DNA of 64,000 nucleotides, taken from the NCBI GenBank assembly GCA_038087875.1, contig CM075994.1, positions 6,636,001-6,700,000 of the forward strand, read 5' to 3'. Source of the DNA: Malacoraja senta. Taxonomy: Eukaryota. A program made the position numbers and the translations under genes. Under the pieces are notes generated by a model. It searched no databases. It worked only from the letters and a program-made list of their open reading frames with translations, and was not told where the DNA came from. Of this stretch, positions 7,791-63,300 are shown one piece after another; the first letter of the stretch is position 1, and each line of letters starts with the position of its first letter.

Positions 7791-8318
7791 GAGTGTTCTT
7801 GGTTGTACAGACGCATCAAATCCACCCTCCTCTAAAGAAAGCAAGTAAACAGTAGCAGATTGCCAGTCCAGTCCACTCCCATTCAGTATAATCACGGCAA
7901 CTCCACCCCACATCTCTACAACCCCTTTAACAACCCTTAATTACCACTCACATCCGTCTCTTCATCTTCCAATCTGCCTCTCCCTCGCCATCTACTGGCA
8001 AGATATTTGAATACCTGCCTTATTTCTCCATCTCCACTCGCAACCTCTCGTTCATCATCACTTTCCACATTTGTTATACCCCGTCCGCACGGACCATCCT
8101 CTCTCGTTCCCGATAACCCGCGAAATTCCCCCTCTCCATCACGGTGAAAAACAAAAAGACGTTTGATGTGGTTGGAGGTGAAACCCCGGGCAAGGTTTCA
8201 GTTGTCCGCCCGCCTGTGTCTGAGGCCGAGCGGCTTCTCCCCCGATCCCGGGGCCGCGCTGCCCGAGTCTCCCCCCCCTACCCCCGGGGTCTCTCTGATT
8301 CTCTGCTTCTCCCCCCAG

Positions 8319-8981
8319 TCTCAGTCACCCTGGATGTGGAAACAGCGCATCCGAGGCTCGAGGTGTCCGAGGATCGGAAGTGGGTCAGATGTACCGGGAT
8401 CGAGAGGAGTCTCCCTGACACCGGGAAGAGGTTTACAGGCAGTACGTGTGTGCTGGGATCGGAGGGATTCACATCGGCGAGAAATTACTGGAGGTGGAGA
8501 TGGCGGGGAGTTGTGGCTGGGGTCTGGGAGTTGCCGCAGAGTCTGTAGAGAGGAAAGGAGAGGACGACCTGACCCCGGAGACTGGAGTCTGGAGCATCGG
8601 GCGGTGGGATGATGAGTTTGATGCACTCACCTCCCCTCTATCCCCTCTCCCTGCCCGTCCATCCCCGGGAGGGTGGGTGTTTATCTCAGTTACGAGTCCG
8701 GGACAGTTTCATTTTACGACGCGGACACCAAGTCTCATCTCCACACCTTCACTGGGAATAAATTCACGGAGAAACTTTATCCTTACTTCTGGACTTGGGA
8801 TGAAGAATCTGAGTGGCTGAGAATCTGCTCCGGTTCCGCTTTCGGGTGTAAAAGAGTTGGGTCCCGGACCGGCGTCAGGAGCGGGGCTGAGTGGCTGTGG
8901 GGCAGAAACCCGGTGGACACAGCTCGGCGCTGCACGGGGTCCCATTTAATCCCCAAATTCCGCGTGATAAAACCCCAGTGA
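8319..8981 (+). pseudogene. TRIM gene A terminal PRY/SPRY (B30.2) exon with two -1 frameshifts
   Basis: ctccccccag acceptor; VSVTLDVETAHPRLEVSED..RF..CVLGSEGFTS..YW / EVE..WGLGVA..GVWSI / [26 protein letters not shown] split across three frames at 8490-8491 and 8659-8660. Confidence 0.85.
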
Positions 8982-9822: not shown

Positions 9823-10572
9823 AGAGGCTGTCCCACGGCGGCGACCTAATCTGCGAGTTCAGAAGAGTGTCTTCGACCTTCAAGCTTGAGGGCAGTCGCC
9901 TGGAAATTGTCGAGCTGGATCGACCGTCAGCGATGAAGCCGCAAGCTGGATCGACCGACCGTACATGCACAACGCACACAAACACGTCGCAAAGGCTGGG
10001 GTCAGGGAAAGTGGGGGAGCGCTGTCTGTAATTCACACCTGCGATGAAGAGGAAGGTAATAGATGGCTGCACAGTGTCTGGTAAGTCCTTTAGAGAGCGC
10101 GGGCGGGGGGGGGGGGGGGGAGAGAACGGGAGAGAAGGGGAGAAGGAGTGGAGACACTTTTAAGAAGTCAGACAACTTATAATAAAGTTTAGCGGGCATT
10201 TAACCAAACGGTCAGTTTTCCTTGGTCCTGAAAACTCCAATGAGCCAATCATAATGCCCAGTCAGCTAAGGAGATTGCCTACGGCTGCCCTCGACTGTCT
10301 GTAAATACGTAACAACCCCACTCCACTGCACTATGAGTCAAAAAGAACCATGCCGACCAAATTTTACTCGCGGAAAATTTTTCAACCTGCTGAAAAATTT
10401 TCCGCAGCTTAGCTGAGGCCACGAGTATTCGGGAACTTCCCTTGTGCATGAAGGAGAGTTCCAGTGACCTCATAGAACCTCCTAGGACCACGTGTCGACC
10501 ATGCTGCGAGTTTGAGTCGAGGGCAAACTCTTCCAAACTCACAGATTAGGTCGCCGCAGTGGGACAGCCCCT
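9823..10572. mobile_element. PIF/Harbinger-type MITE
   Basis: TIR AGAGGCTGTCCCAC.GCGGCGACCTAATCTG / CAGATTAGGTCGCCGCAGTGGGACAGCCCCT; 3-bp TSD TCA at 9820-9822 and 10573-10575. Confidence 0.85.
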
Positions 10573-10627
10573 TCAGCGTGGAGACAGAAGACAGGCCCAT
10601 TACACTGGAAGCCATGGTCAGTGCTTA

Positions 10628-12562
10628 AGCGACCTAATAGGACCAGCACTTGGGCGACCTAATCTGTGAGTTTAGAAGAGTTTGCCCTCGACCTTCAAAC
10701 TCACAGCATGGTCAACAAGTGGTCCTAGGAGGTCCTATGAAGTCGCTGGATCTCTCGTTCATGCTCGATGGAAGTTCCCGAATAATCGCGTCCTCAGCTA
10801 GGTCGCGGAAAAATTTTCAGCATGTTGAAACATTTTCCGCGGGTAAAATTTGGTTGGCATGGTTCTTTTTAACGCGTAGTGCAGTGGAGTGGGGTCGCTA
10901 CTTAGTTACAGGCAGTCAAGGGCAGCTGTAGGTAATCTTCGCTGACTGGGCATTTTGATTGGCTCATTGGAGTTTTCAGGACCAAGGAAAACACCCGGTA
11001 ACTTAAATGCTCGCTAACTTTATTATCTATATTACTGAAAGTCTGATCTTGCCGACTTCCTGTTGTTCTGTATATTGATTTAGAAAAAACGCTGCCACTT
11101 ACGGCTGTGATTTTTGGCCATCTTGAGTAAGGACAAGAGGATTTTTCCCATCGATGAAAAATAAAAGAGTTATTAGTGTTTAAAAAATGTTGAGATTCTC
11201 TCTCCTGAAGGCCACGCCCCTTCTGGAGGACTATAAAACCCGGAAGTGTTGAGTGCCTCAGTCAGTCTCTGCAAGATGGGGCGAGAGGGTCACGTCTCTC
11301 AGTCTGAGCTGTGAATAACACTGAACACATGTCTACTAAACTGAGTGGTTTTACTGACCTGTCAGTGCCCTTAATGTGGTTTGAAAATATAGTTTGGAAA
11401 TGCTAAAGCTGTGTTGCCTTTGGTTTGGAAATGCTAAAGCTGTGTTGGCTTTGGTTTGGAAAAGCTAACGCTGTGTTGCCTTTGGTTTGGAAATTCTAAA
11501 GCTGTGTTGCCTAAGTAAAGTTGCCTTGCTAAATTAAAGTTGCCTTGCCTAATTAAAGTTGCCTTGCCTTCTATATAATTAAAGGTCTAATCTTGACCAC
11601 TTCTCTTTTGCGCTTTATATTGATTTTATAAAAAACGCTACCACGTACGGCTGTGATTTTTGGCCATCTTACTCAGTCCCCCTCCGCTCATCAGGTGCCG
11701 AGGAATTTTCCCATCGATGAAAAATAAAGAGTTATTAGTGTTAAAAAAATGTTGGGATTCTCTCTCCTGTCAATCACGCCATGAAGGCCACGCCCCTTCT
11801 GGTGGGAGGGACTATAAAAACCCAGAAGTGTGTGGTAGCTCAGTCTCTGCAAGATGGAGGAGGGAGAGGTCACGACTCGCTGTCTTTAGTGGCCTTGCAC
11901 CCTGCTTGAAATGGTATGAAACTGCACTTGAATTTGGTGGCCTTGCACCCTGCTTGAAATGGAATTTCAAGGAATAGCCATGAGTCAACTGCCAGCCCAC
12001 CAGCCGTGAGTGAGTGAGCTGCCAGCACATCAGGCTTGAGTGACTGAGCCGCCAGCCCAAGATTCCATTTGGCCCACAATATCCATACTAGCCCTCTGGA
12101 AACCAGTCCCTTCAGCCCACAACACCCATACTAGCGCTCCAGAAAGCCCCCCTCTACCCCAACTGGACACCAATATTGGAATTGGTGGAGAGGTGGAATA
12201 TTGCGTTGGGGGACCAGCCCTCCCATGTGATGCTGGGACCCAACGGGTCCCACTTGGTCTAGTACTTCTTAAAAGTGTCTCCACTCCTTCTCTCCCCCTC
12301 CTCTAAAGGACTTGCCGTAACGTAACTGTGTAGCCGTTTTACCTTCCTCTTCATCGCGGATGTGAATTTCAGACATGGCTCCCCCGCTTTCCCTGGCCCC
12401 CGCTTTTGCGATGTGTTTGTCTGTATGTGTGTGCGGTCCAGCTCGCGGTTTCAACGCTGACGGTCGATCCAGATCGAAGCTTTCCAGGCGACCGCCCTCG
12501 AGCTTGAAGGTCGAAGACACACTTCTTAACTCGCAGATTATGTTGCCCAAGTGGGACAGCCC
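10628..12562. mobile_element. Second copy of the same Harbinger MITE, inverted and split by a Helitron
   Basis: TTA TSD at 10625-10627 and 12563-12565; body is the reverse complement of 9823-10572 on both sides of 11026-12262; left TIR rearranged. Confidence 0.8.
11026..12262 (+). mobile_element. Non-autonomous Helitron with a duplicated 5' module
   Basis: A|TCTATATTAC...TGGGACCC-AAC-GGGTCCCA hairpin...CTAG|T; second TCTATATAATT 5' end at 11570; 30-bp and 19-bp minisatellites at 11390-11570. Confidence 0.9.
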
Positions 12563-18829: not shown

Positions 18830-20200
18830 GCATTTAATAATGGCATGGTTACCAAGCTCTCCGATCTGGGTCTCTGCGCATCCCTCTGCAATTGGATCCT
18901 CGACTTCCTCATTCACAGACCACAACTGTCCGTATTGGTGGAAAAGTCTCGCCCTCAATATCAGCACGGGAGCACATCAAGGCTGCGTGCTCAGCCCCCT
19001 GCTGTACTCACTCTATATTCATGACTGCGTAGCCGGACTAGTGCGAACTCATCAGCAAGTTTGCCGACGACACCACTGTTGTGGGACTTATCAGAGTATA
19101 GAAGTGAGATGGACCGATTGACCAAATAACCATATAACCATATAACAATTACAGCACGGAAAACAGGCCATCTCGGCTCTTCTAGTCCGTGCCGAACACT
19201 TACTCTCACCTAGTCCCATCTACCTGCACTCAGACCATAACCCTCCATTCCTTCCCGTCCATATACCTATCCAATTATTTTTTAAATGATAAAACGAACC
19301 TGCCTTCACCACTTCCACTGGAAGCTCATTCCACACAGCTACCACCCACTGAGTAAAGAAGTTCCCCCTCATGTTGCCCCTAAACTTTTGTCCCTTAGTG
19401 CCAGCACAATAACCTGGCTCTCATCACCAGCAAAACAAGGAACTGATTGTGGACTTCGGAAGGGGTAGGATGGGGACACATGTTCCCGTTTATATCAACG
19501 GGTGGATGGTGGAAAGGGTCAAGAACTTCAAATTTCTGGGCATGCATATTTCCGAAGATCTCTCCTGGTCCCAGAACAATGATGCAATCATAAAGAAAGC
19601 ACATCAGTGCCTCTACTTCCTGAGAAGATTACGGCGAGTCGGTTTGTCAAGGAGGACTCTCTTCGAACTTCTACAGGTGCACAGTAGAGAGCATGCTGAC
19701 CCGTTGCATTGTGGCTTGGTTCGGCAACGAGCGCCAGGAGCGGAAAAGGAGCAAAAAGTTGTAAACACTGCCAGTCCATCATCATCCCTACCATCGAGGG
19801 GATCTATCGCAGGCGCTGCCTCAAAAAGGCTGCCAGCAACATCAAGGACCCACACCATCCTGGCCACAGACTCATCTCTCCGCTGCCATCAGTTAGAAGG
19901 TGCAGGAGCCTGAAATCTGCAACATCCAGGGTCAGGAACAGCTTCCCCACAGCCATCAGAATATTTAAACACAACTTCAAACAAACTATGAACTATAACA
20001 GCCTATTGCACTTTATCTGTGTATTTATGTGTGTATATATATATTCTATGGTATATGGTCACACTGATCTGATCTGATCTGTATTTATGCCTAAAAATAT
20101 TCTGTCATGCGCAGCACGCAAGAATTTCATTGTCCTATCTGGGACATATGACAATAAACTCTCTTGACTTGACTTGACTTGACTTGACTTGACTTGACTT
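18830..20200 (+). mobile_element. Rex1/Babar-like LINE 3' part, interrupted by a CR1 3' end (19126-19393, minus strand)
   Basis: GAHQGCVLSPLLYSLY.HDC, FADDTTVVG, VERVKNFKFLG, KAHQCLYFLRRLR; (CTTGA)n tail. Confidence 0.82.
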
Positions 20201-22397: not shown

Positions 22398-22597
22398 NNN
22401 NNNNNNNNNNNNNNNNNNNNNNNNNNNNNNNNNNNNNNNNNNNNNNNNNNNNNNNNNNNNNNNNNNNNNNNNNNNNNNNNNNNNNNNNNNNNNNNNNNNN
22501 NNNNNNNNNNNNNNNNNNNNNNNNNNNNNNNNNNNNNNNNNNNNNNNNNNNNNNNNNNNNNNNNNNNNNNNNNNNNNNNNNNNNNNNNNNNNNNNNN
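22398..22597. other. Assembly gap (200 N, probably placeholder size)
   Basis: Run of exactly 200 N. Confidence 0.99.
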
Positions 22598-42217: not shown

Positions 42218-42616
42218 CTGGCAGAGGGCAAAGGCTTCCTCTGTGGGGATCAGCGAGTTCCTGCCCTCCGATCCTAGCGCCAGGCAGCTGGGGCAGACCA
42301 GGGTGAGATCCTTCGGGCAGAAGAGCATTGGCAGGTCCCAGTGGGACGGGCACCGTCCCATGCCGTCCACGGGGCTGGGACCCAAGTTCAACAAGCCCAG
42401 GCTGGTCACCAAGGTGGCGAGGAGCTGGTTAGTCTTCAGCTCCCTCCTGGGGAACCCCTGGCAGCACTGCGGGCATGCAACGGTGCCCTTCTCTCCGCCC
42501 CACCGCCCCAAGATGCACGCCCTGCAGAAGTTGTGGCCGCAGTCCAGCGTGACGGGCTCTGAGTAGATGTGGGCGCAGATGGTGCAGCGGAGATTCTGCC
42601 CCAAGCTCTCAGCCAT
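42218..42616 (-). CDS. TRIM gene B exon 1: C3HC4 RING plus degenerate B-box, 133 aa
   Basis: agaATGG start; CTIC..EPVTLDCGHNFCRACI..W..CPQC RING; CPSH..LFCPKD..VCPSC B-box; CAG|gtacga donor, phase 0. Confidence 0.92.
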
Positions 42617-42939: not shown

Positions 42940-43237
42940 TTGGTTTAGTTTAGAGATACAGTGCGGAAACAGGGCCTTCGGCCCACCGAGTCCGCACCGA
43001 CCAGCGATCCCCTCACATTAACACAATCCTGCACACACTAGGGACAATTGTTACATTTACACCAAGCCAATTAACCTACAAACCTGTACGTCTTTGGAGT
43101 GTGGGAGGAAACCGAAGATCTCGGAGAAAAATGTACAAACTCCGTACAGACAGCACCCGTAGTCGGGATCGAATCCGAGTCTCTGGCGCTGCAAGCGCTG
43201 TAAGGCAGCAACTCTACCGCTGCACCACCGTGGCCAC
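42940..43237 (-). mobile_element. Full-length V-SINE/HE1-like SINE
   Basis: Reverse-strand GGCCACGGTGGTGCAGCGGTAGAG head, core and (TAAAC)n tail. Confidence 0.85.
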
Positions 43238-43734
43238 CCACATCTGTGGAATAATTTGCCACAGAAGGCTGTGGAGGCCAAGTCAATAGGCAGAGATAGA
43301 TAGATTCTTGATTAGTACGGGTGTCAGAGGTTATGGGGAGAAGGCAAGAGAATGGAGTTGGGAGGGAGAGATAGTTCAGCCATGATTGAATGGCAGAGTA
43401 GACTTTTGATGGGCCGAATGGCGTAGTTCTACTCCTATTCCTTATGACATTGTGGGGAAATAGTTGTTTAATGGTATATTTGATATTGAAGACTACTTGT
43501 TTGACGCATTATGGTGGTGTGTTTTGTTTTGAATTATTTTGTTTCGTACATGTCATGGTAAATTGTTGAACACATTATTTTTGGTTGAATAAATAAATAA
43601 ATAAATATATATTTTAAAACAAAACAAACAAACAAACAAACAAAAAACAGAACAAGGTCCCGACTAGGAAAGGCTCCCTCTACACTATCCCGTCATACAC
43701 TCCCAGGGCATGTGTTAGTCCCGGTAATGGGCAT

Positions 43735-44420
43735 CAGACGACACACTATGCGGGAGTTGCCTGGCTTTTACTGCGATTTGCACAGAGTTAGGAATTTGGC
43801 CACCTTCAGCCAGGACGCTGCTCCTCCAGGGGAGGGGGGTGTTGTAGCTGCGAGAGTGGCCGGTCCTCACCATGTCACGGTGGGTATCGAGGAGCGGCGC
43901 GTACGTGGAACGATTCCGGCCGGGCTTACCCCTGCTCAGTCGGAATTGCTCATAGGACCCAAGGCCCAGGTCCTTTACTGAGAGCCGGCCCCGCGCAACA
44001 TGAGCCGCCTTTCCGAGATGCCCAGCGTGCTGTTCCGTGATGCGGAGAGACGTTTACTATACAGGTTGTTCCTGCACACTCTACACTTCCTTACCCTCGT
44101 CTTCCGTCCGGATACGCCTTGGCGGTCCGTGTTACCACCTGACGGCGGGAGCGGTCCCCAGTGGAGGTCTCTCTATGAGGGAGTCCTCCCCCTTTACATT
44201 GGGGACCTGGGATGGACAGTGTTGCACAAAGTCATGGTGTGTAACAGATATTTAAATCAGTTCACGGACTCGCCGGCCGGCTGTCACTTCTGCGGCGAGG
44301 AAGAGGCCTTGTTCCATATGTACATGGAGTGTGAGAGGCTGCAGCCCCTGTTCGAGTATCTGAAGTGGCTGCTCCTCAAGTTTTGGCTCCACTTTAGTCC
44401 GACGCTGCTGATTTTTGGGC
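43735..44420 (+). mobile_element. Tx1/L1-like ORF2 C-terminal fragment
   Basis: LPGFYCDL..W..LY..PLYIGDLGW..C.FCGEEE..FH.YMEC; direct paralog of 49560-50250. Confidence 0.8.
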
Positions 44421-45159
44421 ACACCACGACTCTGTGCAACACTCTCCACCCCAGGTCCCCGATGTAAAGGGGAGGACTCGCTTATAGAGAGACCTCCACT
44501 GGGGACCGCTCCCGCCGTCAGGTGGTGACACAGTCCGCCAAGGCGTGTCCGGACGGAAGACGAGGGTGAGGAAGTGTAGAGTGTGCAGGAACAAGCTGTA
44601 TAGTAAACGTCTCTTCACGTCACGGAACAGCACGCTGGGCATCTCAGAAGGGTGGCTCATGTTGCGCGGGGCCGGCTCTCGGTAAAGGACCTGGGCCTTG
44701 GGTCCTATGAGCAATTCCGACTGAGCGGGGGTAAGCCCGGCCGGAATCGTTCCACATACGCGCCTCTCCTCGATACCCACCGTGACATGGTGAGGACCGG
44801 CCACTCTCTCAGCTACAACACCCCCCTCCCCCTGAGGAGCAGTGTCCTGGCTGAAGGTGGCCAAATTCCTAACTCTGAGCAAATCGCAGTAAAAGCCAGG
44901 CAACTCCCGCATAGTGTGTCGACTGACACGTGCCCTTTTTTTTCCTTTTTACAAATACTTTTTATTCAGTAAACAAAAACAAACATACATAGTATTTACA
45001 CGATCAAGAGCTGCCTACATTGGCAGTTTAACCATATAACAATTACAGCACGGAAACAGGCCATCTCGGCCCTTCTAGTCCGTGCCGAACACTTATTCTC
45101 CCCTAGTCTCCCCTGGCTGCACTCAGACCATAACCCTCCATTCCTTTCCCGTCCATATA

Positions 45160-46763
45160 CAGTGGCTTGCAAAAGTTTTCATACCCCTTGAACTTTTCCA
45201 CATTTTGTTACGTTACAACCACAAACATAAATGTATTTTATTGGGATTTTATGTGATAGACCAACACAAAGTGGTGCATAATTGTGAAGTGGAAGGAAAA
45301 TAATACATGGTTTTCAAATAAAAAAATAAAAAAAACTGAAAAGTGTCGCGTGCAAAGGTATTCAGCCCCCCTGAGTCAATCCTTTGTAGAACCACCTTTC
45401 GCTGCAATTACAGCTGCAAGTCTTTTGGGGTATGTCTCTACCAGCTTTGCACATCTAGAGACTGAAATTTTTGCCCATTCTTCTTTGCAAAATAGCTCAA
45501 GCTCAGTCAGATTGGATGGAGAGCGTCTGTGAACAGCAATTTTCAAGTCTTGCCAGAGATTCTCAATTGGATTTAGGTCTGGACTTTGACTGGGCCATTC
45601 TAACACATGAATATGCTTTGATCTAAACCATTCCATTGTAGCTCTGGCTGTATGTTTAGGGTCGTTGTCCTGCTGGAAGGTGAACCTCTGCCCCAGTCTC
45701 AAGTCTTTTGCAGACTCTAACAGGTTTTCTTCCAAGATTGCCCTGTATTTGGCTCCATCCATCTTCCCATCAACTCTGACCAGCTTCCCTGCCCCTGCTG
45801 AAGAAAAACATCCCCACGGCATGATGCTGCCACCACCATGTTTCACAGTGGGGATGGTGTGTTCAGGGTGATGTGCAGTGTTAGGTTTCCGCCACACATA
45901 GCGTTTTGCATTTAGGCCAAAAACTTACATTTTGGTCTCATCTGACCAGAGCACCTTCCTCCACATGTTTGCTGTGTCCCCCACATGGCTTGTGGCAAAC
46001 TGCAAACGGGACATCTTATGGCTTTTTTTCAACAATGGCTTTCTTCTTGCCACTCTTCCATAAAGGCCCGATTTGTGGAGTGCACGACTAATAGTTGTCC
46101 TGTGGACAGATTCTCCCACCTGAGCTGTGGATCTCTGCAGCTCCTCCAGAGTTACCATGGGCCTCTTGGCTGCTTCTCTGATCAATGCTCTCCTTGCCTG
46201 GCCTGTCAGTTTAGGTGGACGGCCATGTCTTGGTAGGTTTGCAGTTGTGCCATACTCTTTCCATTTTCAGATGATGGATTGAACAGTGCTCTGTGAGATG
46301 TTGAAAGCTTGGGATATTTTTTTATAACCTAACCCTGCTTTAAACTTCTCCACAACTTTATCCCTGACCTGTCTGGTGTGTTCCTTGGGCTTCATGATGC
46401 TGTTTGTTCACTAATGTTCTCTAACAAACCTCTGAGGCCTTCACAGAACAGCTGTATTTATACTGAGATTAGATTATACACAAGTGGACTCTATTTACTA
46501 ATTAGGTGACTTCTGAAGGCAATTGGTTGCACTGGATTTTATTTAGGGGTATCAGAGTAAAGGGGGCTGAATACTTTTGCACGCAACACTTTTCAGTTTT
46601 TTATTTGTAAAAAAATTTGAAAACCATGTATCACTTCACAATTATGCACCACTTTGTGTTGGTCTATCACATAAAATCCCAATAAAATACATTTACGTTT
46701 GTGGTTGTAACGTGACAAAATGTGGAAAAGTTCAAGGGGTATGAATACTTTTGCAAGCCACTG
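45160..46763 (-). mobile_element. Tc1 (IR/DR, Passport-like) DNA transposon, copy 1
   Basis: TA|CAGTGGCTTGCAAAAG...CTTTTGCAAGCCACTG|TA; TIRs about 200 bp with an internal direct repeat. Confidence 0.96.
45376..46395 (-). pseudogene. DD34E transposase, 339 codons, two in-frame stops
   Basis: [29 protein letters not shown] at codon 43 and TAA at codon 157. Confidence 0.95.
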
Positions 46764-46860
46764 TACCTATCCAATCTATTTTTAAATGATAAAATCAAAC
46801 CTGCCTCCACCACTGCCACTGGAAGCTCATTCTGCACAGCTACCACTCTCTGAGTTTACA

Positions 46861-47630
46861 AACAAACAGTCATCAAATTCTATATATCTGCAACTTTATC
46901 AATAATACACTCGACCTCCCGTGGCGACCAGCGTTCATGGACGGCCTCCAGAGTCCCCGTGGACACCGCATGTTCCCTCTCCAGGGACACGTGGGCAGGA
47001 GTAGACCCCTCCTCCCCCTCACTCCCAACCCCCCCCCCCCCCCCTCTGTACGGGTGCGCAAATATCAGGCGCTTGGGGCTAAAATGCAGCCAAAACTTGA
47101 GGAGCATCCCCTTCAGATAGTCGAACAGGGGCACTACTGGGACTAACACTTTTTTTTTTAACACAAATATTTATTCCAAAAAACAAAATCAACATATAAA
47201 GTAGTATAGCATTCATATCAAAAGCTGCCTACATCGGCAGTTTACAAACAAGGCAAAAATTCAACTTAAAATCCCGCCATCCTTATCTATAATACAATCG
47301 ACCTCCCTCGGCAACCAGCGTTCACGGAAGGCCTCCAGCGTCCCCGTGGACACCGCGTGATCCATCTCCAGGGACACGCGGGCACGGACGTAACCCCGGA
47401 AAAGGGGCAGGCAGCCGACCCCTGTGCGGCCGTCGACTGCCCGCTGCCTGGACCCGCGAATGGCAATCTTGGCCAGGCCTAGGAGCAGACCGACAGGGAG
47501 ACCCCCTCCCTCCCTCCCTCCCGACCCTCCCCCCTCTGGAGGCCGTCCATGAACGCTGGTCGCCACGGGAGGTCGAGTGTATTATTGATAAAGTTGCAGA
47601 TATATAGAATTTGATGACTGTTTGTTTGTA
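46861..47630. mobile_element. Stacked Tx1/L1-like 3' ends forming the duplication spacer and inner arm ends
   Basis: Minus-strand PLFDYLKG.LLKFWLHFSP and LLLGLAKIAIRGSRQRA; poly-T at 47150-47159. Confidence 0.75.
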
Positions 47631-47723
47631 AACTCAGAGAGTGGTAGCTGTGTAGAATGAGCTTCCAGTGGCAGTGGTGGAGGCAGGTTTGATTTTATCA
47701 TTTAAAAATAGATTTGATAGGTA

Positions 47724-49326
47724 CAGTGGCTTGCAAAAGTATTCATACCCCTTGAACTTTTCCACATTTTGTCACGTTACAACCACAAACGTAAATGTAT
47801 TTTATTGGGATTTTATGTGATAGACCAACACAAAGTGGTGCATAATTGTGAAGTGATACATGGTTTTCAAATTTTTTTACAAATAAAAAACTGAAAAGTG
47901 TCGCGTGCAAAAGTATTCAGCCCCCTTTACTCTGATACCCCTAAATAAAATCCAGTGCAACCAATTGCCTTCAGAAGTCACCTAATTAGTAAATAGAGTC
48001 CACTTGTGTATAATCTAATCTCAGTATAAATACAGCTGTTCTGTGAAGGCCTCAGAGGTTTGTTAGAGTACATTAGTGAACAAACAGCATCATGAAGCCC
48101 AAGGAACACACCAGACAGGTCAGGGATAAAGTTGTGGAGAAGTTTAAAGCAGGGTTAGGTTATAAAAAAATATCCCAAGCTTTCAACATCTCACAGAGCA
48201 CTGTTCAATCCATCATCTGAAAATGGAAAGAGTATGGCACAACTGCAAACCTACCAAGACATGGCCGTCCACCTAAACTGACAGGCCAGGCAAGGAGAGC
48301 ATTGATCAGAGAAGCAGCCAAGAGGCCCATGGTAACTCTGGAGGAGCTGCAGAGATCCACAGCTCAGGTGGGAGAATCTGTCCACAGGACAACTATTAGT
48401 CGTGCACTCCACAAATCGGGCCTTTATGGAAGAGTGGCAAGAAGAAAGCCATTGTTGAAAAAAAGCCATAAGATGTCCCGTTTGCAGTTTGCCACAAGCC
48501 ATGTGGGGGACACAGCAAACATGTGGAGGAAGGTGCTCTGGTCAGATGAGACCAAAATTTAAGTTTTTGGCCTAAATGCAAAACGCTATGTGTGGCGGAA
48601 ACCTAACACTGCACATCACCCTGAACACACCATCCCCACTGTGAAACATGGTGGTGGCAGCATCATGCTGTGGGGATGCTTTTCTTCAGCAGGGACAGGG
48701 AAGCTGGTCAGAGTTGATGGGAAGATGGATGGAGCCAAATACAGGGCATTCTTGGAAGAAAACCTGTTAGAGTCTTCAAAAGACTTGAGCATGGGGCAGA
48801 GGTTCACCTTCCAGCAGGACAACGACCCTAAACATACAGCCAGAGCTACAATGGAATGGTTTAGATCAAAGCATATTCATGTGTTAGAATGGCCCAGTCA
48901 AAGTCCAGACCTAAATCCAATTGAGAATCTCTGGCAAGACTTGAAAATTGCTGTTCACAGACGCTCTCCATCCAATCTGACTGAGCTTGAGCTATTTTGC
49001 AAAGAAGAATGGGCAAAAATTTCAGTCTCTAGATGTGCAAAGCTGGTAGAGACATACCCCAAAAGACTTGCAGCTGTAATTGCAGCGAAAGGTGGTTCTA
49101 CAAAGGATTGACTCAGGGGGGCTGAATACCTTTGCACGCGACACTTTTCAGTTTTTTTTTTTTTAAATTTGAAAACCATGTATTATTTTCCTTCCACTTC
49201 ACAATTATGCACCACTTTGTGTTGGTCTATCACATAAAATCCCAATAAAATACATTTATGTTTGTGGTTGTAACGTGACAAAATGTGGAAAGGTTCAAGG
49301 GGTATGAAAACTTTTGCAAGCCACTG
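47724..49326 (+). mobile_element. Tc1 (IR/DR, Passport-like) DNA transposon, copy 2
   Basis: TA|CAGTGGCTTGC...GCAAGCCACTG|TA; same flanks as copy 1. Confidence 0.96.
48092..49111 (+). pseudogene. DD34E transposase, 339 codons, two in-frame stops
   Basis: MKPKEHTRQVRDKVVEK...; stops at 48218-48220 and 48560-48562; no frameshift; 34 residues between the second D and the E. Confidence 0.95.
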
Positions 49327-49555
49327 TATATGGACGGGAAAGGAATGGAGGGTTATGGTCTGAGTGCAGCTAGGGGAGACTAGGGGAGAATAAGTGTTCG
49401 GCACGGACTAGAAGGGCCGAGATGGCTTGTTTCCGTGCTGTAATTGTTATATGGTTAAACTGCCAATGTAGGCAGCTCTTGATCGTGTAAATACTATGTA
49501 TGTTTGTTTTCGTTTACTGAATAAAAAGTATTTGTAAAAAGGAAAAAAAAAGGGC

Positions 49556-50850
49556 ACGTGTCAGTCGACACACTATGCGGGAGTTGCCCTGGCTTTTACT
49601 GCGATTTGCTCAGAGTTAGGAATTTGGCCACCTTCAGCCAGGACACTGCTCCTCAGGGGGAGGGGGGTGTTGTAGCTGAGAGAGTGGCCGGTCCTCACCA
49701 TGTCACGGTGGGTATCGAGGAGAGGCGCGTATGTGGAACGATTCCGGCCGGGCTTACCCCTGCTCAGTCGGAATTGCTCATAGGACCCAAGGCCCGGGTC
49801 CTTTACCGAGAGCCGGCCCCGTGCAACATGAGCCACCCTTCCGAGATGCCCAGCGTGCCGTTCCGTGACGTGAAGAGACGTTTACTATACAGCTTGTTCC
49901 TGCACACTCTACACTTCCTCACCCTCGTCTTCCGTCCGGACACGCCTTGGCGGTCTGTGTCACCACCTGACGGCGGGAGGGGTCCCCAGTGGAGGTCTCT
50001 CTATAAGCGAGTCCTCCCCCTTTACATCGGGGACCTGGGGTGGAGAGTGTTGCACAGAGTCGTGGTGTGTAACAGATATTTAAATCAGTTCACGGACTCG
50101 CCGGCCGCCTGTAACTTCTGCGGCGAGGGATAGACCGTGTTCCACGTGTATATGGAGTGTGAGAGGTTGCAGCCCCTGTACCAGTATCTGAAGGGGCTGC
50201 TCCTCAAGTTCTGGCTGCATTTTAGTCCCACGATCCTGGTATTTGGGCACAAGGCAGGGAGGGGGGAGGGTCAATCAGGGGGGGGGGAGGGATCTCCCCG
50301 TTGGTCTGCTCCTGGGCCTGGGGGCCTGGCCAAGATGGCGATTCGCGGGTCCAGGCAGCGGGCGGTCGATGGTGACAACAGAGCCGGCTGCCTGACCTCC
50401 TCCGGGCCTATGTCCAGGCTCGCTTGTTCCTGGAGAGGGAACACGGGGTGTCCACGGGGACTCTGGAAGCCTTCCATGAATGCTGGTCGCCGGGGCGGGT
50501 CGAGAGCATTGTGGATGAAGGTGCCATTACTGTATTAGAATGATTGCCTGATGCAATGTGACTATTGAATGTTTTTGTACCTTCTGGTACACCGCAATAT
50601 GCAATAGTGTCCTTGGAAGGGGAAAAAAAAAGGGCAGGGACTGGAAAGGGCCGATTGGGAGGGTGGGATCTCCCTGTCGGTCAGCTCCTGGGCCTGGCAT
50701 AGATGGCCATCCACGAGTCCAGGCAGCGAGTAGTCGATGGTCACATGATAATGATCGCCTGATGTAATGTGAAAGTCTTTGTACCTTCTAATACTCTGTA
50801 AATTGCAATTACTGAATAAATAAAGTCTTTGTTAAGAAGTGGAAAAAAAA
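49556..50850 (+). mobile_element. Tandem Tx1/L1-like 3' fragments with A tails
   Basis: zf-RVT CNFCG..FHVYMEC; A runs at about 50622 and 50843. Confidence 0.8.
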
Positions 50851-51126
50851 AGCATTCATGGGAGCAGGAAAGCATTCTGGGACCGACGGGCACTGCAGTG
50901 AATTGACTGCAAGCTGGATCAGTGCAGTAACGTGGGGACTTATTGATGTTTAGTCCTTTGAAATTCTGTGATCATTTAATGCTTTGAAAGATTGACGGCT
51001 TTCGTGTCAGAGGTTGATGATTTGGCTGGGCGTTAAGTTGAGAAAATAATTGCATTTGCTTCAACTTTGCTGAAAGAGAGGAAGGGGACAGTTTCCTCTT
51101 CCTCTTTTGAACATCTGCCCGTCCCT

Positions 51127-56396: not shown

Positions 56397-57370
56397 TCAG
56401 ATATGTAAAGTTTTTTTTACACAGAAGGTGATGGGTGCCTGGAACACATTGCTGGTGGTGGAGGCAGATACGATAGTGGTGTTTAAGAAGCTTTTAGATA
56501 GGCACATGGATATGCATGGAATGGAGCGATATGGACCACGTGCAGGCAGAGGGGATTAATTTAACTTGGTTTCCTGTTCAGCAAGGACACTTGATTGTAA
56601 TCAAGTCTAGTCTTCCCACTGACCGGTTAGCACAAAACAAAAAAAACCTCGGTACATGTGACAATAAACTAAACTAAACTAAAACACAGTGGGATTTTGG
56701 GGTTGTTCCTGTACTGTACTGTTCTATGTAGGAAGGAACTGCAGATTCTGCTTATACTGAAGATAGACACAAAATAATGGAGTAACTCAGCGGGACAGGC
56801 AGCATCTCTGGAGAGAAGGAATGGGTGACGTTTCGAGTCGAGACCCTTCTTCAGATTAAAAGTCACAGGAAAGGGAAACGGAAGTGTCAAGAGTCAAGAA
56901 TGTTTTATTGTCATATGTCCCGGATGGGACAATGAAATTCTTACTTGCTGCAGCACAACAGAATATGTGAATATGTAAACATGGTATATAACGGGGGAAG
57001 AGAAAAAAAAAGAAAAAGTTCAATAAATAACAAATATAACGCAATAATAATATAGTCTTTTGCAGTTCAGAGCTCAGAGCTTATTTGTTGTTGTGTTTAA
57101 TAGCATAATGGCTGTAGGAAAGAAGCTGTTCCTGAACCTGGACGTTACAGTTTTCAGGCTCCTGTACCTTCTTCCTGATGGCAATGGTGAAATGAGTGTG
57201 TGTGGCCAAGATGGTGTGGGTCCTTGATGATTTTGGCTGCCTTTTTGAGGCTGCCTTTTTGTGTCATTTTACATGGTGTCACAGTGGTAGACTCGCGTCT
57301 CCTGTTTATCGTTTTTTCTTTTTATTCTTTGCTTTCTCCCAGTTGTTCACGTCTCCCCCCCGTTTTCATT

Positions 57371-58285
57371 ATGTCCAATTCCTGTCGTCGACCCGACATA
57401 TTGGTCTTTGACACGGACATTGTCCACCGCTGGACTGTGTTCCAGCGCGACTTTGAACATTACACACCCATCGCTCAACCTAATGCCACCCCTGCTGTGC
57501 AGGCTCACCTGCTGCTCAACCTCGCTGGCCCGGAGGCCATGGATCACTATGCTTCATTCGACTTCGCCCCCGGAGAAGACCGTCGGGACCCGGTATGTCT
57601 CATGGCTAAATTCACTGCCCTCTGTGATATCCCTACCAATAACATTATTGAACGCTTTAAATTCTTCCAGAGGCGGCAGAATCCCGGCGAGCATATTGAC
57701 GCTTTTATTGCCTCTTTGCGTCATATGGCTCGGCGCTGTCGCCTTGAAACAATCTCCACGGACGAATTGATCAGGGATGTCCTGGTCAATGGTCTCCTGA
57801 ACGCTAAGCTGCGTGACGAGCTCCTTATGAAACCTGATTTGACACTAAGGGAGGCTATGCATTCCGCTCGTATGGCCTCTGCTGTTAGCTCCGTGTCTCA
57901 ACCGGTGTCCCAGGACATTAACTTTACCGGTGCAGCTGGCCGCCGGCGAAACGCTGGTCCGCCATGACGAAACCCCGCCGCAATGCCCGCTAAGGTCACC
58001 CCACACCGTTGCCCCAATTGTAATTTTTCTTTCCACCAATTCAACGTTTGCCCCGCGCAGGGTAAGGCTTGTGATTCCTGTGGCAAACGGAACCATTTTT
58101 CGGCGGCTTGTCGGTCCCGTAATAAGCCGGTCCCTGCTCCAAGGAGGAATTTAAACAACCTTGCAGACCCTGATAGCGCGCTTGGTTATCACTACCAGTC
58201 GGACTTTGATAGGAGCTCCTCCCATGGTGATTCAACGGTGTTTTTGCTTTTGGGTGCACCTGCTACGATAACAGATCCCTCTGCA
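57371..58285 (+). pseudogene. Gypsy gag with two Zn knuckles and one in-frame stop (57965-57967)
   Basis: ERFKFFQRRQNPGE..LIRDVLVNG; CPNC...H....C and CDSCGKRNHFSAAC. Confidence 0.85.
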
Positions 58286-58286
58286 G

Positions 58287-59774
58287 ATGATGCTGCAGCT
58301 CCAGCATTTCACGTTCCGGATTGTGTACCGCAAGGGCAAAGATATGTTTGTGGCTGACACATTGTCCCGTGCGCCGCTCCCTTCAGTTGCCCGCCACCCG
58401 TATGAATCCTCTGACCTGATGGTACTGAATGTTAACATTGTTCCATCCCAGCAGATGCAGTCCCTGGTCAAACACACTGCTGATGATCCTGCCCTGCAAC
58501 AACTTGCAGACGTTATCCGCCGTGGTTGGCCTAACCGACGCTCTTCCCTGCCGGCTGGTGCCGTGCCGTACTTCCTGGTTCATGATGAACTAGTGCTACA
58601 CGACGGCGTGGTGGTGAAGGGTCACAAGGTCGTGGTGCCGGCCGCTCTGCGGGATCACTATTTTCAAACTGCACACAATGGCCACCCCGGGCTGGACGCC
58701 ACTTTGTCCCAGGCCCAGAGCCAATTCTACTGGCCAGGCATGGCTCAGGACATCCGTGACAGGGTCTCCGTTTGCGCTGCCTGTGACAGTCTCCTGCCTC
58801 ATCAGCAGCGCCAGCCCCTCCTGCAGCAGCCGGCCCCCGAGCTACCGTGGATGTATGTTGCCACGGACCTTTTCGAATGGCGTGGCAAGCATGTCCTGGT
58901 CCTGGTGGACTCATACTCCAGTTGGTTTAAGGTGGATCAGCTGCCTTCCATCACCTCTGCCGCCGTCATCGGGAAGCTTCGCCACCACTTTTGCACCTTC
59001 GGACCCCCGGTGACCCTCCAATCGGACAACGGCAGCCAGTTCTCCGGCGCCGAGTTCCGTGCCTTCGCTGCCCGTTGGAACTTTCGTCACATCACCAGCA
59101 GCCCTGAGTATCCGCAGAGCAACGGCCTTGCGGAACGTGCTGTCCGCAGTGCCAAGGAGCTGCTGGAACACTGCCGCCTTTCACATTCCGACTTCTACCT
59201 TGCCCTCCTCAACCTCCGCAACATTTCCCAACGCCTCATGTCCTGCACCACTAGACCACCTCTCCCTGTCTCGCAACAGTCCCTCAAACCCTCGGTCCAG
59301 AACCCTGCTGCTGTCACAGAGCGCACCATCGAGAAGAAAGCCATCCAGAAGCGCTCCTTTGACAAGTCGGCCCGGCCGCTTCCTTGCCTGTTCCCGGGCC
59401 AGGTGGTTCGGATGCAGTCCCCCTCCGGGCACTACAGGCTGGCCGTAGTGGTTGGTAATGCCGGCTCTCCCCGGTCATACCTCGTCGACTATGAGGGCGC
59501 TATCTACCGTCGGTCACGCCAGCACCTCCTGCTCGCCAACGAGCCTCCTCCGCCTCCCGCGGACCCGTTTCAGCCACCTATCGCTTCCATTCTGCCCGAG
59601 GCTCTGCCAGCCCCTGTCACTCCTCGCATGTCGCGGAAACTGCCCTCCCAGCTCTCTATGCCCACGCTCACAAGCCTCTTTCCCCTGCCTTGCCTGCCAG
59701 CGTGCCGTTTCACCTCGCTGTTCTCCTCCGTCTCCGGTTCGTTCCCCGCCCGGCTCTCCCACCTCTTTCCCTGA
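58287..59774 (+). CDS. Gypsy pol remnant: RNase H C-terminus plus HHCC and DD35E integrase
   Basis: YRKGKDMFVADTLSR, AHNGHPG..CAAC, ATDLF, SDNGSQF, PQSNGLAER; 35 residues from D to E. Confidence 0.88.
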   Translation: MMLQLQHFTFRIVYRKGKDMFVADTLSRAPLPSVARHPYESSDLMVLNVNIVPSQQMQSLVKHTADDPALQQLADVIRRGWPNRRSSLPAGAVPYFLVHDELVLHDGVVVKGHKVVVPAALRDHYFQTAHNGHPGLDATLSQAQSQFYWPGMAQDIRDRVSVCAACDSLLPHQQRQPLLQQPAPELPWMYVATDLFEWRGKHVLVLVDSYSSWFKVDQLPSITSAAVIGKLRHHFCTFGPPVTLQSDNGSQFSGAEFRAFAARWNFRHITSSPEYPQSNGLAERAVRSAKELLEHCRLSHSDFYLALLNLRNISQRLMSCTTRPPLPVSQQSLKPSVQNPAAVTERTIEKKAIQKRSFDKSARPLPCLFPGQVVRMQSPSGHYRLAVVVGNAGSPRSYLVDYEGAIYRRSRQHLLLANEPPPPPADPFQPPIASILPEALPAPVTPRMSRKLPSQLSMPTLTSLFPLPCLPACRFTSLFSSVSGSFPARLSHLFP

Positions 59775-60310
59775 CTCTGTCCCTTCTGCTCCTGCGGTTG
59801 AGGGGGAATGCGGTTTGCGCACCCGCTCTGGCCGGTTGGTCAAGCCGCCTGTCCGTTACGGGGAGCTCGCTTAGCTGTGCTATGACACGATTAACTGTTC
59901 CCAGCGCGGTTTGTAATCCTAGCGTATGAGCCGTGGTCGCTCTGTGTATTGCCATGTTTTTGTTTCCAAGAGGAGGGATGTAGATCAGTGCATGTTCCTT
60001 TAACTTAGTGACCTCACCACTACTAACCACTCCCCATTGTCTCTCGTATAATTGTAAGGTCCCCACCTCCAGCTCGCTCTCTAGCTCCAGTGATGACCAC
60101 GGACAGCTATTGCATAGTGTGTGTTAGTGATTATAATAAACCATCAGTAAAAGACTCTGTGTAGGAACCAAGTCATTTTACAGCGACTATGATAGATCCC
60201 TTCGATGGTGGGGAGGTCAGTGCCGGTGATGGACTGGGCAGTGGTCACAACTTTTTGTAGTCTTTTTCGCTCCTGGACGTTCAAGACAGTGATATAGAGA
60301 GATATAGAAC

Positions 60311-63300
60311 TGTCAAGCCTTCTAATGTTTTTGTGCAGATTCCCCGCTTGAAAGGGATCTGATTCATCCACCCCGAAATGATGAACTGGATTTCACTCAA
60401 TGACCAAACCACTTCTTTTCCATTTTTTTTTCTCCTTTTATTTTGGCAGATTCAGCAATTAATTGACAGTTTCACTTGATTTATTGCTTCAGCCATTACT
60501 TTGAAGGCATTTGGATGTTGTAGGTCTTAAGGTATTTAACAGTTTAGTCTTTTAGCAGGTGAAAAACTGGCTTCCAATCGGGTGCTGTAGATAATCAGTC
60601 CTGCATGCCTTCGCTGGCGATCGCGGCAGTTTTTAGGACAGTCTCTTAGATTATACTGTTCAAGTTTTTAGCCGCAAGTCAACTTCCATCTTTTCTCGCT
60701 TCCGGTGCTGTGTGCCCTTTTTTAAAGCCCCGGGCGGAACTTGGCTTATCTCCGCTTCTCTGTTCACGGTCGGGCTGACTCTGCTCCCGACCGGGCTTTC
60801 TCTGCTTTCTCCCCCCACCGGGTTGACTGTTCCCAGTTGGGCTGAAGACTCAGCCTCTTGTCGGTGGCTTTTCTGGACCTGTCCGTGGCCTTCACGGTAC
60901 TAGGCCCCCACCCGATGTCTGTGGCTGCTGCTTGAGCTTGGCAGTGGGCTTCACAGCCCTGGATACATTCCAGGTAAGGTGACACCGTGCTTGGTGACCC
61001 TTACTGCCCCTACTTGATTTCCTAGCTCTTCCCTGAGCTATTGCTTCCCGTTCCTACCTTTTTCCTTTTTGGCGCCAATTCAAAACCATTTGGCTTGGTG
61101 CTGTTCCACTTGTTTCCAAATACTACTTCTATTTTTAACTTTTGTTTTCGATTTTTCTTGCTGGCCTTGTTCTTATCTTCGTTCTTTTATCCTCGTCGCC
61201 AATTGTTGTGTATTCGGATGCTTTGAACAGTCTTGAATAAAGGCTCGGACACAGGAGGAATCATACAAGCTTCTTTACTACAGGACGCCACCTTGTCTTT
61301 TTTGCTCCTGCGTACTTGCCCCAGACATCACAAGACACCAATTACTTATCCTAATTATCCCATACCTAACACTCCTCCCCCTTTAACTTGGAGCCCGGTA
61401 ACACCAATTATATTACATACATAATACTCCTCCCCCTTTAACTTGGAGGCAGGTAATACCTTTCATTACAGTTTGACTTGACACCTCCCACTCAATCTTC
61501 CAATGGAACCACTTGGGAGATCGACGCTTTAAAGTCAAACTTTGAAGTCTAGGTTTGAACTTGGTCTCCTGATGCATTGCTGTCTTGTTCTTCTACTGGA
61601 AGCAAGACAACCAGCCGCCTAACATCCCTGTGAACAATCGTGGCTTGGATCCTCTCCTTCCCCTGAGTGGAATGCCTTGCCCTTCCTTTCAAAGCCTTTG
61701 TCAGAGGAATGGAGTAACTTTGAAAGATCCGTACATTAACGTCTCTCACGATGCCTTTGCAGTCTGGATTGGAGCTGACGACTCTGCCCAGCTTGAATTG
61801 CCCCCTCAGTGCATTTGGTCACTTAACTAGACAATGTCTCCGGCAGTGACATTTCTCTGAGTGGTGTGCCACTTGCTCCTTATAAACAAGTTAGGACCGG
61901 CGAGTTGGCTCCAGCTCTTGCAAAACTTGTTCACCTCTGACTGCATTGTTCTAAGTCTTTTGTAGGGGTAGCTGGAAAAGTCAAAAGTCTTGATGTCTCC
62001 GCACTGAGATGCTCGGCCAAGCAGAAGAGTATTTGGTGTGATGTACTGAACGCAGTCTTCCCGGCTTTGTATTCTGGCGTCGATCGGACGTTCATTTGAC
62101 AGGTTGGCTGCCATGTAAAGAGCTGTCTGAAACTCACTATAACTGAGTGACGATTCTTTTCCAAAACTTTGGAGCGCTCTCTTCACAACACGCACAGCAG
62201 CTTCCGCAGCGCCATTTCTGTGTGGAGAATCAGCAGGATGGATTTTCCACATCCACTCTGTTCCATTTTTAGCTGCGTTCTCCTCCAAAGCTGCTCTGTC
62301 CAGGTTGTCCAAAAATCTATATAGTTCCTCTAAGACTGGTTTTGTGCCAATAAAATTGGTGCCTGGATCTGACCAGATCTTCTTGGGGTGCCCACGGATT
62401 GCTGTGAATCTTTGATAAGCCATCAGAAACCCTTCACTTGATAAGGTGTTGACTAACTCTGTGTGGATGGCTCTGCTGGCCATACAGCAGAAGACAACTC
62501 CCCAGACTTTGAGTTTTACCCTCTTCTTGACGTCATCGTGTACGTGGTAGGGTCCAAAGAGGTCTACTGTTGTATACTCAAAAGGAGCAGCAGGTTCAGT
62601 TCTTTCAGGCGGCAGAACTCATTATTTGTTGACATTTCTTTGCCTTTGCTTTCTTGCAGATTATGCAGTGATCAACGACTTTTTGAGCAATTCTCCTTCC
62701 TTTTATGACCCAAGCCTTTCCTCTCATTTTAAGCAAGGTCCCAGCCACTCGGTCATGACTCTCCCTGTGAGCCTCCCGAGCTAGCAGCATGGACACCCAG
62801 GCATCAACGGGCAGGATGGGAACAGCACCTTTATCTTCTTCAAAGCTCTGCACTCTGCCACACAAACCATCAGCCCAGAATCTTGGTCTTTATAGGCTAC
62901 CAGTCGATCTGTTGTGGTGCTTGGGAAAGTTGTGTCCAATTGCGCAGCACAAAACATGTCTTTTAGAGCATTTTCTCGTTCTCTTACTGTAATGACTCCT
63001 GTCAAAGAGATGGCCTCCCACTTTGGATAGTTTAGGGCTTTTTCCCTGCCAAGAAACCTCTTCGCTGCTCTCCAAATCCATGCGACTGTCTTGATCAGTC
63101 GAGTTAGAATGCTGAGCCGCTTGACATCAACAAGGTTCTGAATAGCTGACCCTGCAGGTGGTCTCTTTGGGTTTGTGGGTTCCGGTTCTTGTTTCTCTAC
63201 TTTGGCTCTTGATAGTGCTGCAACAAAAGCTTTCTTCTGTAACTTTTCGATGTTCTCTCTGGCAGTGGCAGCCAGTTCCTTAGCTGATTTTATTGGCCAC

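What the first reader, a model, noticed from the sequence alone, without database searches (positions are those of the whole stretch)
44420..50069. 5.6-kb quasi-palindrome made by inverted duplication, not by two Tc1 insertions
Seen: both Tc1 copies sit in the same TA of the same CR1 tail (empty-site form GTCCATATACCTATCC at about 19257). They share both nonsense codons and an 11-bp deletion in the 5' TIR, yet differ at 7 residues in the tracked ORFs. Breakpoints lie in Tx1 sequence with microhomology (CAC at about 44420, CTCTG at 47534). A more diverged direct copy at 43735-44420 gives a direct-inverted-direct layout. Replication template switching is inferred. The structure starts 1.8 kb upstream of the TRIM B ATG and could give hairpin dsRNA, spacer inversion or instability.
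Basis: partly seen in the sequence, partly recalled or inferred. Interest (0 to 1): 0.7.

Follow-up and report, generated by a model that had tools for sequence, protein, structure and literature searches.

The report
Small inversion with duplicated transposon flank
Two 2.5-kb near-mirror copies of the same stack of broken transposons sit 580 bases apart in a skate-like fish genome; they were likely made by one ordinary DNA-repair accident that flipped the middle piece and copied its neighbour, a known kind of rearrangement with no sign of a function.

Summary
Arms 44420-46953 and 47534-50069 are 98.8% identical (26 substitutions, 4 indels) around a 580-bp spacer. Both Tc1 copies share one TA site, an 11-bp TIR deletion and the codon-157 stop (0 of 18 other copies): one insertion, later duplicated. 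The spacer is itself inverted. Undoing that restores a continuous Tx1-like LINE across both junctions (22 and 20 of 22 family loci, against 0 of 22 as assembled) and turns its two 11-bp target-site copies back into direct repeats. So X-S'-A-Y became X-A'-S-A-Y, with 3- and 5-nt microhomology and about 6 nt lost. This is a kilobase-scale '1-3-4-2' template-switch product (INVdup), likely from a break repaired by two strand switches; staggered-break end joining fits too. The 'direct-inverted-direct' third copy is an older, separate Tx1 (about 5.8% diverged), so this is no triplication. Substitution-rich, CpG-biased, evenly split arm divergence argues against misassembly, but no read spanning a junction was seen. 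Hairpin RNA, arm conversion and instability are unsupported or untested. Known class; low interest.

The parts
43712..44422 (+). X: 5' part of 5'-truncated Tx1-like LINE copy a (ORF2 C-terminal region), cut at the break point
   Evidence: family ORF2 resembles Tx1 clusters (atlas 0.98; RVT_1, zf-RVT)
43712..43722 (+). Left copy of the 11-bp target-site duplication of Tx1 copy a
   Evidence: pattern occurs exactly twice in the window, 0.05 expected
44420..44422 (.). Junction 1 (X to inverted arm), 3-nt microhomology CAC
44420..46953 (-). Left arm A' (inverted copy)
45160..46763 (-). Left Tc1 (DD34E-type transposase with stops at codons 43 and 157; TA at 45158-59 and 46764-65)
46954..47533 (-). 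Spacer S, single copy, inverted relative to the inferred ancestor: 3' part and A tail of Tx1 copy a, then 5' part of Tx1 copy b
47139..47149 (-). Right copy of the 11-bp target-site duplication of Tx1 copy a, beside the poly(T) at 47150-47159, now in inverted orientation
47534..47538 (.). Junction 2 (inverted spacer to right arm), 5-nt microhomology CTCTG
47534..50069 (+).
47724..49326 (+). Right Tc1 (transposase 48092-49111, same two stops; TA at 47722-23 and 49327-28)
49552..50630 (+). Tx1 copy c; runs through the outer end of the right arm (50069) without a break; its first ~570 bp share rare alleles with X (older copy or conversion event)
42218..42616 (-). Neighbour, not part of the structure: TRIM B coding exon 1 (RING), ATG at 42616

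Best explanation
The two arms and the inverted spacer are the likely product of one germ-line repair event in which DNA synthesis would have left a break or stalled fork inside a Tx1 fragment, switched strand 3.1 kb ahead, copied back to that point and rejoined the original strand. Shown: the arms, one shared Tc1 insertion, two new junctions with 3- and 5-nt microhomology, and an inverted spacer. Inferred: the ancestral order X-S'-A-Y (from family copies and a target-site duplication, no outgroup locus seen); loss of about 6 nt at the X|S' point; switch order 1-3-4-2. Inferred and not testable here: that the back-copy stopped because the template ended at a break there (point 3 lies about 6 nt from point 1), microhomology-mediated break-induced replication as the pathway. 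The Tc1 and the LINE tail are passengers; the structure is most likely neutral.
For: Undoing the inversion gives family alignments across junction 1 in 22 of 22 loci and junction 2 in 20 of 22; as assembled 0 of 22 cross either, while the other two arm ends are crossed in 20 and 22 of 22. An 11-mer that occurs twice in the window flanks Tx1 copy a as a direct repeat only in the undone order. Family text fixes the 6-nt loss and the CAGAG/CTCTG overlap. Arm Tc1s form a clade 100/99 among 20 copies, share 8 substitutions, a stop and an 11-bp deletion found in 0 of 18 others, and each has 6 private substitutions outside the T tract. Differences are 26 substitutions to 4 homopolymer indels; 8 are CpG transitions, 5 of 7 in the Tx1 part. 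The Tx1|tail join is found only in the two arms among 40 scored places. Type 1-3-4-2 makes exactly an inverted repeat with an inverted spacer (PMC5453318).
Against: No read or contig bridging junction 1 or 2 was among the 26 records listed (408,308 not shown), so the assembly is unverified. No outgroup or second haplotype of the locus was available (one search finds the TRIM exon once). The reverse-copied piece is 3.1 kb, far beyond the short range for which the four-point model was built. Microhomology of 3 and 5 nt is also made by end joining, so the pathway is not fixed. The assembly has what looks like a haplotype duplicate 184 kb upstream.
Confidence: 0.6

Rival explanations
1. Staggered or multiple breaks and end joining: a near-blunt break at X|S' and a staggered pair of nicks (or breaks in two sister chromatids) around A; the middle piece flips and A is filled in on both sides. 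Same product, no strand switch.
For: Ranz et al. describe inversions with inverted duplications at breakpoints, including a one-sided case (PMC1885836, passages incl. Figs 2, S3, S5B legends). It explains the near-reciprocal X|S' point directly.
Against: Needs 2.5 kb of unwinding or three breaks within 3.1 kb; both junctions carry microhomology and no inserted bases. The authors name the unwinding length as a difficulty.
Confidence: 0.27
2. Misassembly: fold-back chimera or two haplotypes joined in inverted orientation.
For: No junction-bridging record seen. A 13.8-kb + 3-kb 99.6% direct duplicate beside an N gap lies 184 kb upstream, so this assembly probably holds false duplications.
Against: A fold-back of one molecule gives identical or indel-ridden arms; here 26 substitutions, CpG-biased, split 6 and 6 between the Tc1 copies. 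That likely haplotype pair has 31 substitutions in 13.8 kb, at most 10 in any 2535 bp, against 26 here (one comparator, its haplotype status unproven). Two new junctions with 3-5 nt overlap are needed; no N gap lies within 21 kb.
Confidence: 0.07
3. Inverted triplication (DUP-TRP/INV-DUP or ODIRA-like), as the 'direct-inverted-direct' wording suggests: X, A' and A are three products of one event.
For: X (43734-44423) matches 49561-50251 at 92.5%, the best of 40 scored genomic copies, others <=85% over the full length; both start within about 20 nt of each other.
Against: X is 5.7-5.9% from both arms, the arms 1.4% from each other over the same stretch. The shared rare alleles run to 44259, past the arm's end at 44241, and stop by about 44300; beyond that X and the spacer belong to one Tx1 subfamily and Y to another. 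X has its own target-site duplication. No long inverted repeat marks a junction.
Confidence: 0.03
4. Two independent Tc1 insertions, or transposase-driven alternative transposition.
For: The Tc1 family is young and abundant (40 of 40 scored places at 97-100%, 1902 first-look candidates).
Against: Identical flanks over 190 and 740 bp, shared private lesions, sister position on the tree. No junction lies at a Tc1 end (nearest 190 bp away).
Confidence: 0.01

Closest known systems
Four-point template switch, type 1-3-4-2 (Loytynoja and Goldman 2017, PMC5453318; passages, sections 6 and 10 read)
   Same: [quoted passage not shown]
   Different: Their events are short-range; here the reverse-copied piece is 3.1 kb and the ancestor is inferred from transposon families, not from an aligned relative.
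INVdup / dupINV complex structural variant (Collins et al. 2017, PMC5338099; passages read)
   Same: An inversion with a duplication at one breakpoint, two new junctions.
   Different: Smaller than their roughly 5-kb resolution; old (1% divergence) and in a cartilaginous fish; read support not shown here.
Inversion with inverted duplication by staggered breaks (Ranz et al. 2007, PMC1885836; passages read)
   Same: Inverted duplicate of breakpoint sequence, no pre-existing inverted repeat needed, one-sided case described.
   Different: There the inversions are large; here the unduplicated inverted piece (580 bp) is shorter than the duplicate (2.5 kb), so the product is a spaced palindrome.
Mu killer of maize (PMC3440606; search listing and start of abstract only)
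   Same: Inverted duplication that contains transposase and TIR sequence of a multi-copy DNA transposon, near a host gene.
   Different: Mu killer has proposed read-through hairpin RNA and shown silencing; here there is no expression evidence, and poly(A) signals lie on both strands.
DUP-TRP/INV-DUP (PMC11293582; abstract and outline read)
   Same: Superficial direct-inverted-direct layout of the Tx1 part.
   Different: No triplicated segment of one age and no kilobase inverted repeat at a switch point; not a member.

Membership tests
Four-point template switch type 1-3-4-2 | One reverse-complement fragment between two switch events; inverted repeat with inverted spacer | tested here: met
Four-point template switch type 1-3-4-2 | Short range (tens to hundreds of bases, one fork) | tested here: not met
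   reverse fragment 580 + 2536 bp; so it works like this type but lies outside the scale surveyed
Four-point template switch type 1-3-4-2 | Ancestral allele seen in a relative | not testable with these tools
   no related eukaryote genome is served
INVdup / dupINV | Inversion with a duplication at one breakpoint, two novel junctions | tested here: met
INVdup / dupINV | Read support for both junctions and doubled depth on the duplicate | tested here: inconclusive
   contigs only, repeats flood the tables, no listed record bridges a junction
Staggered-break inversion | Inverted duplicate at a breakpoint without pre-existing inverted repeat | tested here: met
   3- and 5-nt overlaps only; no unusual hairpin at the four arm ends (z from -0.81 to 1.50)
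Staggered-break inversion | Formed by nicks, fill-in and end joining, not by strand switching | not testable with these tools
   both routes give the same sequence
DUP-TRP/INV-DUP | Three copies of one age, middle one inverted | tested here: not met
   third copy 5.7-5.9% diverged against 1.4%, own target-site duplication
DUP-TRP/INV-DUP | A switch point inside a pre-existing long inverted repeat | tested here: not met
   the undone allele has no inverted repeat other than the Tc1 TIRs (self-comparison)
Concerted palindrome (arm-to-arm conversion) | Homogenised tracts between arms | tested here: inconclusive
   27 difference events: longest gap 490 bp p=0.08, tightest six in 121 bp p=0.13; no signal, low power
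Mu-killer-like hairpin silencer | Inverted duplication of transposon sequence | tested here: met
Mu-killer-like hairpin silencer | Read-through transcript across both arms and derived small RNAs | not tested
   the RNA runs offered held only small shares and none was laid; poly(A) hexamers on both strands
Tc1/mariner, Tc1 type | TA duplication, about 200-bp TIRs, HTH and DDE domains, D-34-E spacing | tested here: met
   (spacing counted by eye)
Tx1 clade LINE | RT with zinc-binding C-terminus, 5' truncation, A tail, target-site duplication | tested here: met
Tx1 clade LINE | RT phylogeny places it in the Tx1 clade | not tested
   only an atlas name (0.98) supports the label

The most novel reading that the evidence does not exclude
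The spaced palindrome lies in a transcribed region (an upstream TRIM B intron or a divergent promoter transcript) and yields a 2.5-kb hairpin RNA whose small RNAs silence a young, abundant Tc1 family: a vertebrate counterpart of maize Mu killer, made by host repair and not by the transposase, and kept for that reason.
Probability: 0.04. Interest if true: 0.6.

Novelty: new member of a known kind. Interest (0 to 1): 0.2.

Why it matters
Modestly. It is a clean, fully resolvable example of a kilobase-scale inversion with inverted duplication in a cartilaginous fish, where nested transposons preserve the ancestral order, both microhomologies and the 6-nt scar. It warns that two facing Tc1 copies can be one insertion, and that a spaced 2.5-kb palindrome can last long enough to reach 1% divergence without visible homogenisation. 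It would matter more only if RNA data showed a hairpin transcript silencing the Tc1 family.

Tried and rejected
Public runs: 24 listed, best share 0.50; four laid on 43000-47800. Three were flooded by family contigs, one held almost nothing. No listed record bridged a junction, but most were not shown, so this is neither support nor refutation. In run X1 one 149-base contig on arm Tx1 sequence had depth 56 against 15 and 20 for two single-copy pieces; this fits two or three collapsed copies but contig depth is no copy number and X1 may be the source sample or another species, so I do not count it. Haplotig search with TRIM exon 1: one hit only. Conversion between X and the adjacent left arm: at 7 sites where the arms differ, X sides with the left arm 4 times and the right 3 times, no signal. 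Hairpins at arm ends: none beyond shuffles. G-quadruplex trigger: the X|S' point abuts a G-rich motif, but one of three breakpoints would be that close with probability 0.06-0.13, post hoc. Retrotransposon twin priming or 3' transduction: rejected, the copied piece ends in mid-ORF without an A tail and the original orientation of the spacer is gone. One conserved Tx1 target for the whole family: not seen in 27 distinct tails. Rfam: four NRON matches far below the gathering score, chance. Earlier scan notes: none for this genome; one loosely similar archaeal note that did not change my reading. No search was aimed at this locus in print; I make no claim that it is undescribed.

Full report
Observation. 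A self-comparison of the window finds the inverted pair 44420-46953 / 47534-50069 at 98.8% over 2537 columns, and a direct match 43734-44423 / 49561-50251 at 92.5%. The arms differ by 26 substitutions and 4 single-base indels, all four in homopolymer runs. The host is skate-like: the neighbouring TRIM exon is 95% identical to a little-skate protein. In 464 kb centred on the window this is the only inverted pair over 1 kb with a gap under 10 kb.

One Tc1, not two. Each arm holds a Tc1 with TA flanks, HTH and DDE_3 domains. Of 120 matches in the genome I fetched the best 20 loci, two being the arms. The other 18 all have different flanks. Against their majority, the arms share 15 substitutions and an 11-bp deletion; 8 of the substitutions (one in a poorly aligned T tract), including the codon-157 stop, and the deletion are in 0 of 18 others. 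The codon-43 stop is in 6 of 18 and proves nothing. Each arm has 6 private substitutions outside the T tract. The arms are sisters at 100/99 support on a tree whose other forks are unresolved and whose bootstrap had not fully settled. The 18 copies are those closest to the query, not a random sample. The empty site is at 19257 and the 7 residue differences are as reported.

The ancestral order. Two of the four arm ends run on smoothly into Tx1-like sequence (46953 into the spacer, 50069 into Y); the other two (44420, 47534) are breaks. Family loci cross the smooth ends in 20 and 22 of 22 cases and the breaks in 0 of 22. If the left arm is removed and the spacer reversed, they cross the two new joins in 22 and 20 of 22. 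Family text at the first join reads GGGCAC-CCGGTA-CAGAG-GGGGG; X ends in GGGCAC and the reversed spacer with its 5-nt overlap starts at CAGAG, so about 6 nt were lost and the overlaps are CAC and CTCTG. Independently, an 11-mer occurs exactly twice in the window (0.05 expected): on + at 43712, the 5' end of X, and on - at 47139, next to the poly(T) in the spacer. It is the target-site duplication of one Tx1 copy and is direct only in the undone order. So X-S'-A-Y became X-A'-S-A-Y. This is inferred from families, not seen in a relative.

The third copy. X is the best genomic match to the Tx1 part of the arms among 40 scored places, but it is 5.7-5.9% from both arms against 1.4% between them. 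It shares 23 rare alleles with copy c from 43772 to 44259, past the end of the left-arm homology at 44241, and none from 44301 on, where X and the spacer follow one subfamily and Y another (27 family rows). I read this as an older conversion or local copy between two neighbouring direct Tx1 insertions. The site is a stack of four head-to-tail, 5'-truncated copies; a second, 10-nt flank repeat (43706, 49552, and its arm copy at 44926; 0.35 expected) brackets copies a and b.

Mechanism. In the four-point notation the order is 1-3-4-2, which creates an inverted repeat with an inverted spacer and made up 23% of 794 short human-chimp events (PMC5453318, sections 6 and 10 read; PMC7954356 passages). 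In structural-variant terms it is an INVdup/dupINV (PMC5338099 passages). The reverse copy ends about 6 nt from where synthesis left, 3.1 kb after it began. A free switch has no reason to end there; a template that ends at a break does. I therefore favour a break or collapsed fork repaired by two microhomology-guided strand switches; a break-based model has been proposed for much smaller microinversions (PMC8755829 passages). Staggered breaks with end joining give the same product (PMC1885836 passages) and cannot be excluded. No junction is at a Tc1 end, so the transposase is not implicated.

Real or misassembled. For real: substitution-dominated, CpG-biased (8 of 26), evenly split divergence; two junctions with only 3-5 nt overlap; no gap within 21 kb; a probable haplotype duplicate 184 kb upstream is 4-5 times less diverged (31 substitutions in 13.8 kb, at most 10 per 2535 bp). 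Against certainty: that duplicate shows the assembly is not free of such artefacts, and the one read-level test gave no listed record across a junction. I put misassembly at about 7%.

Age and function. About 0.5% per arm. With the epaulette-shark rate of 7x10^-10 per base per generation (PMC10587355, abstract) this would be millions of generations; the rate is from another species and CpG sites run faster, so this is only an order of magnitude. Differences are not significantly clustered (p 0.08 and 0.13), so arm conversion is not shown. Spacing and divergence lower the instability of inverted repeats outside long single-stranded regions (PMC10164571, abstract). The two Tc1 copies point away from each other, so their own transcripts would not cover both arms. 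Seven AATAAA lie on + between the TRIM start and the right arm, and three on - between the right arm's outer end and the start of the left Tc1 (47801, 47170, 46600), so a hairpin RNA needs an intron or strong read-through. TRIM B has three open coding exons (42616-42218, 28310-28212, 23066-22824) and then runs into an N gap; its own PRY/SPRY exon was not found among 92 scored matches. Nothing ties the structure to TRIM B except 1.8 kb of distance. The nearest functional precedent would be maize Mu killer (listing only). Supplements of the cited papers were not opened; the supplementary figure of all four-point types in PMC5453318 could refine the type assignment.

Verdict. A real-looking, well-resolved, old inversion with a one-sided inverted duplication: a new member of a known kind, interest 0.2.

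Noticed in passing
window 43706-50860: Four head-to-tail 5'-truncated Tx1-like copies stacked at one site, each starting right after the previous A tail with short flank repeats; 3 of 27 distinct family tails elsewhere (L023, L026, L071) are followed by sequence resembling the same short repeat unit seen at 43670-43715. Suggests subfamily-specific targeting of a common repeat (resemblance judged by eye).
   Followed up: partly
window 43734-44300 and 49561-50128: Older conversion or local copy between two direct Tx1 copies of different subfamilies: 23 rare shared alleles, then an abrupt fall from about 94% to 84% identity.
   Followed up: yes
window 22398-22597: 200-N gap right after TRIM B coding exon 3; the gene's 3' exons (PRY/SPRY) were not found in the assembly.
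   Followed up: partly
G000:C18 about 6436001-6476600 (L097-L101): 13.8-kb and 3-kb direct duplicates at 99.6% next to an N gap, probably a false haplotype duplication.
   Followed up: partly
window 8117-8817 (+): PRY and SPRY of another TRIM fall in different frames, so the last exon looks frameshifted; it belongs to a cluster of at least seven related RING exons within 105 kb upstream of the window.
   Followed up: partly
window 10179-11026: Single 850-bp self-complementary element (82.5% to its own reverse complement), likely an old MITE-like repeat.
   Followed up: no
window 57191-59929: LTR-element remains with a 500-codon open frame carrying Integrase_H2C2 and rve domains; 60309-61483 has a 98% direct copy about 7.4 kb downstream.
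   Followed up: no
window 47500-47533: The break point abuts a G-rich, G-quadruplex-capable tract of the Tx1 ORF; chance level 0.06-0.13.
   Followed up: yes
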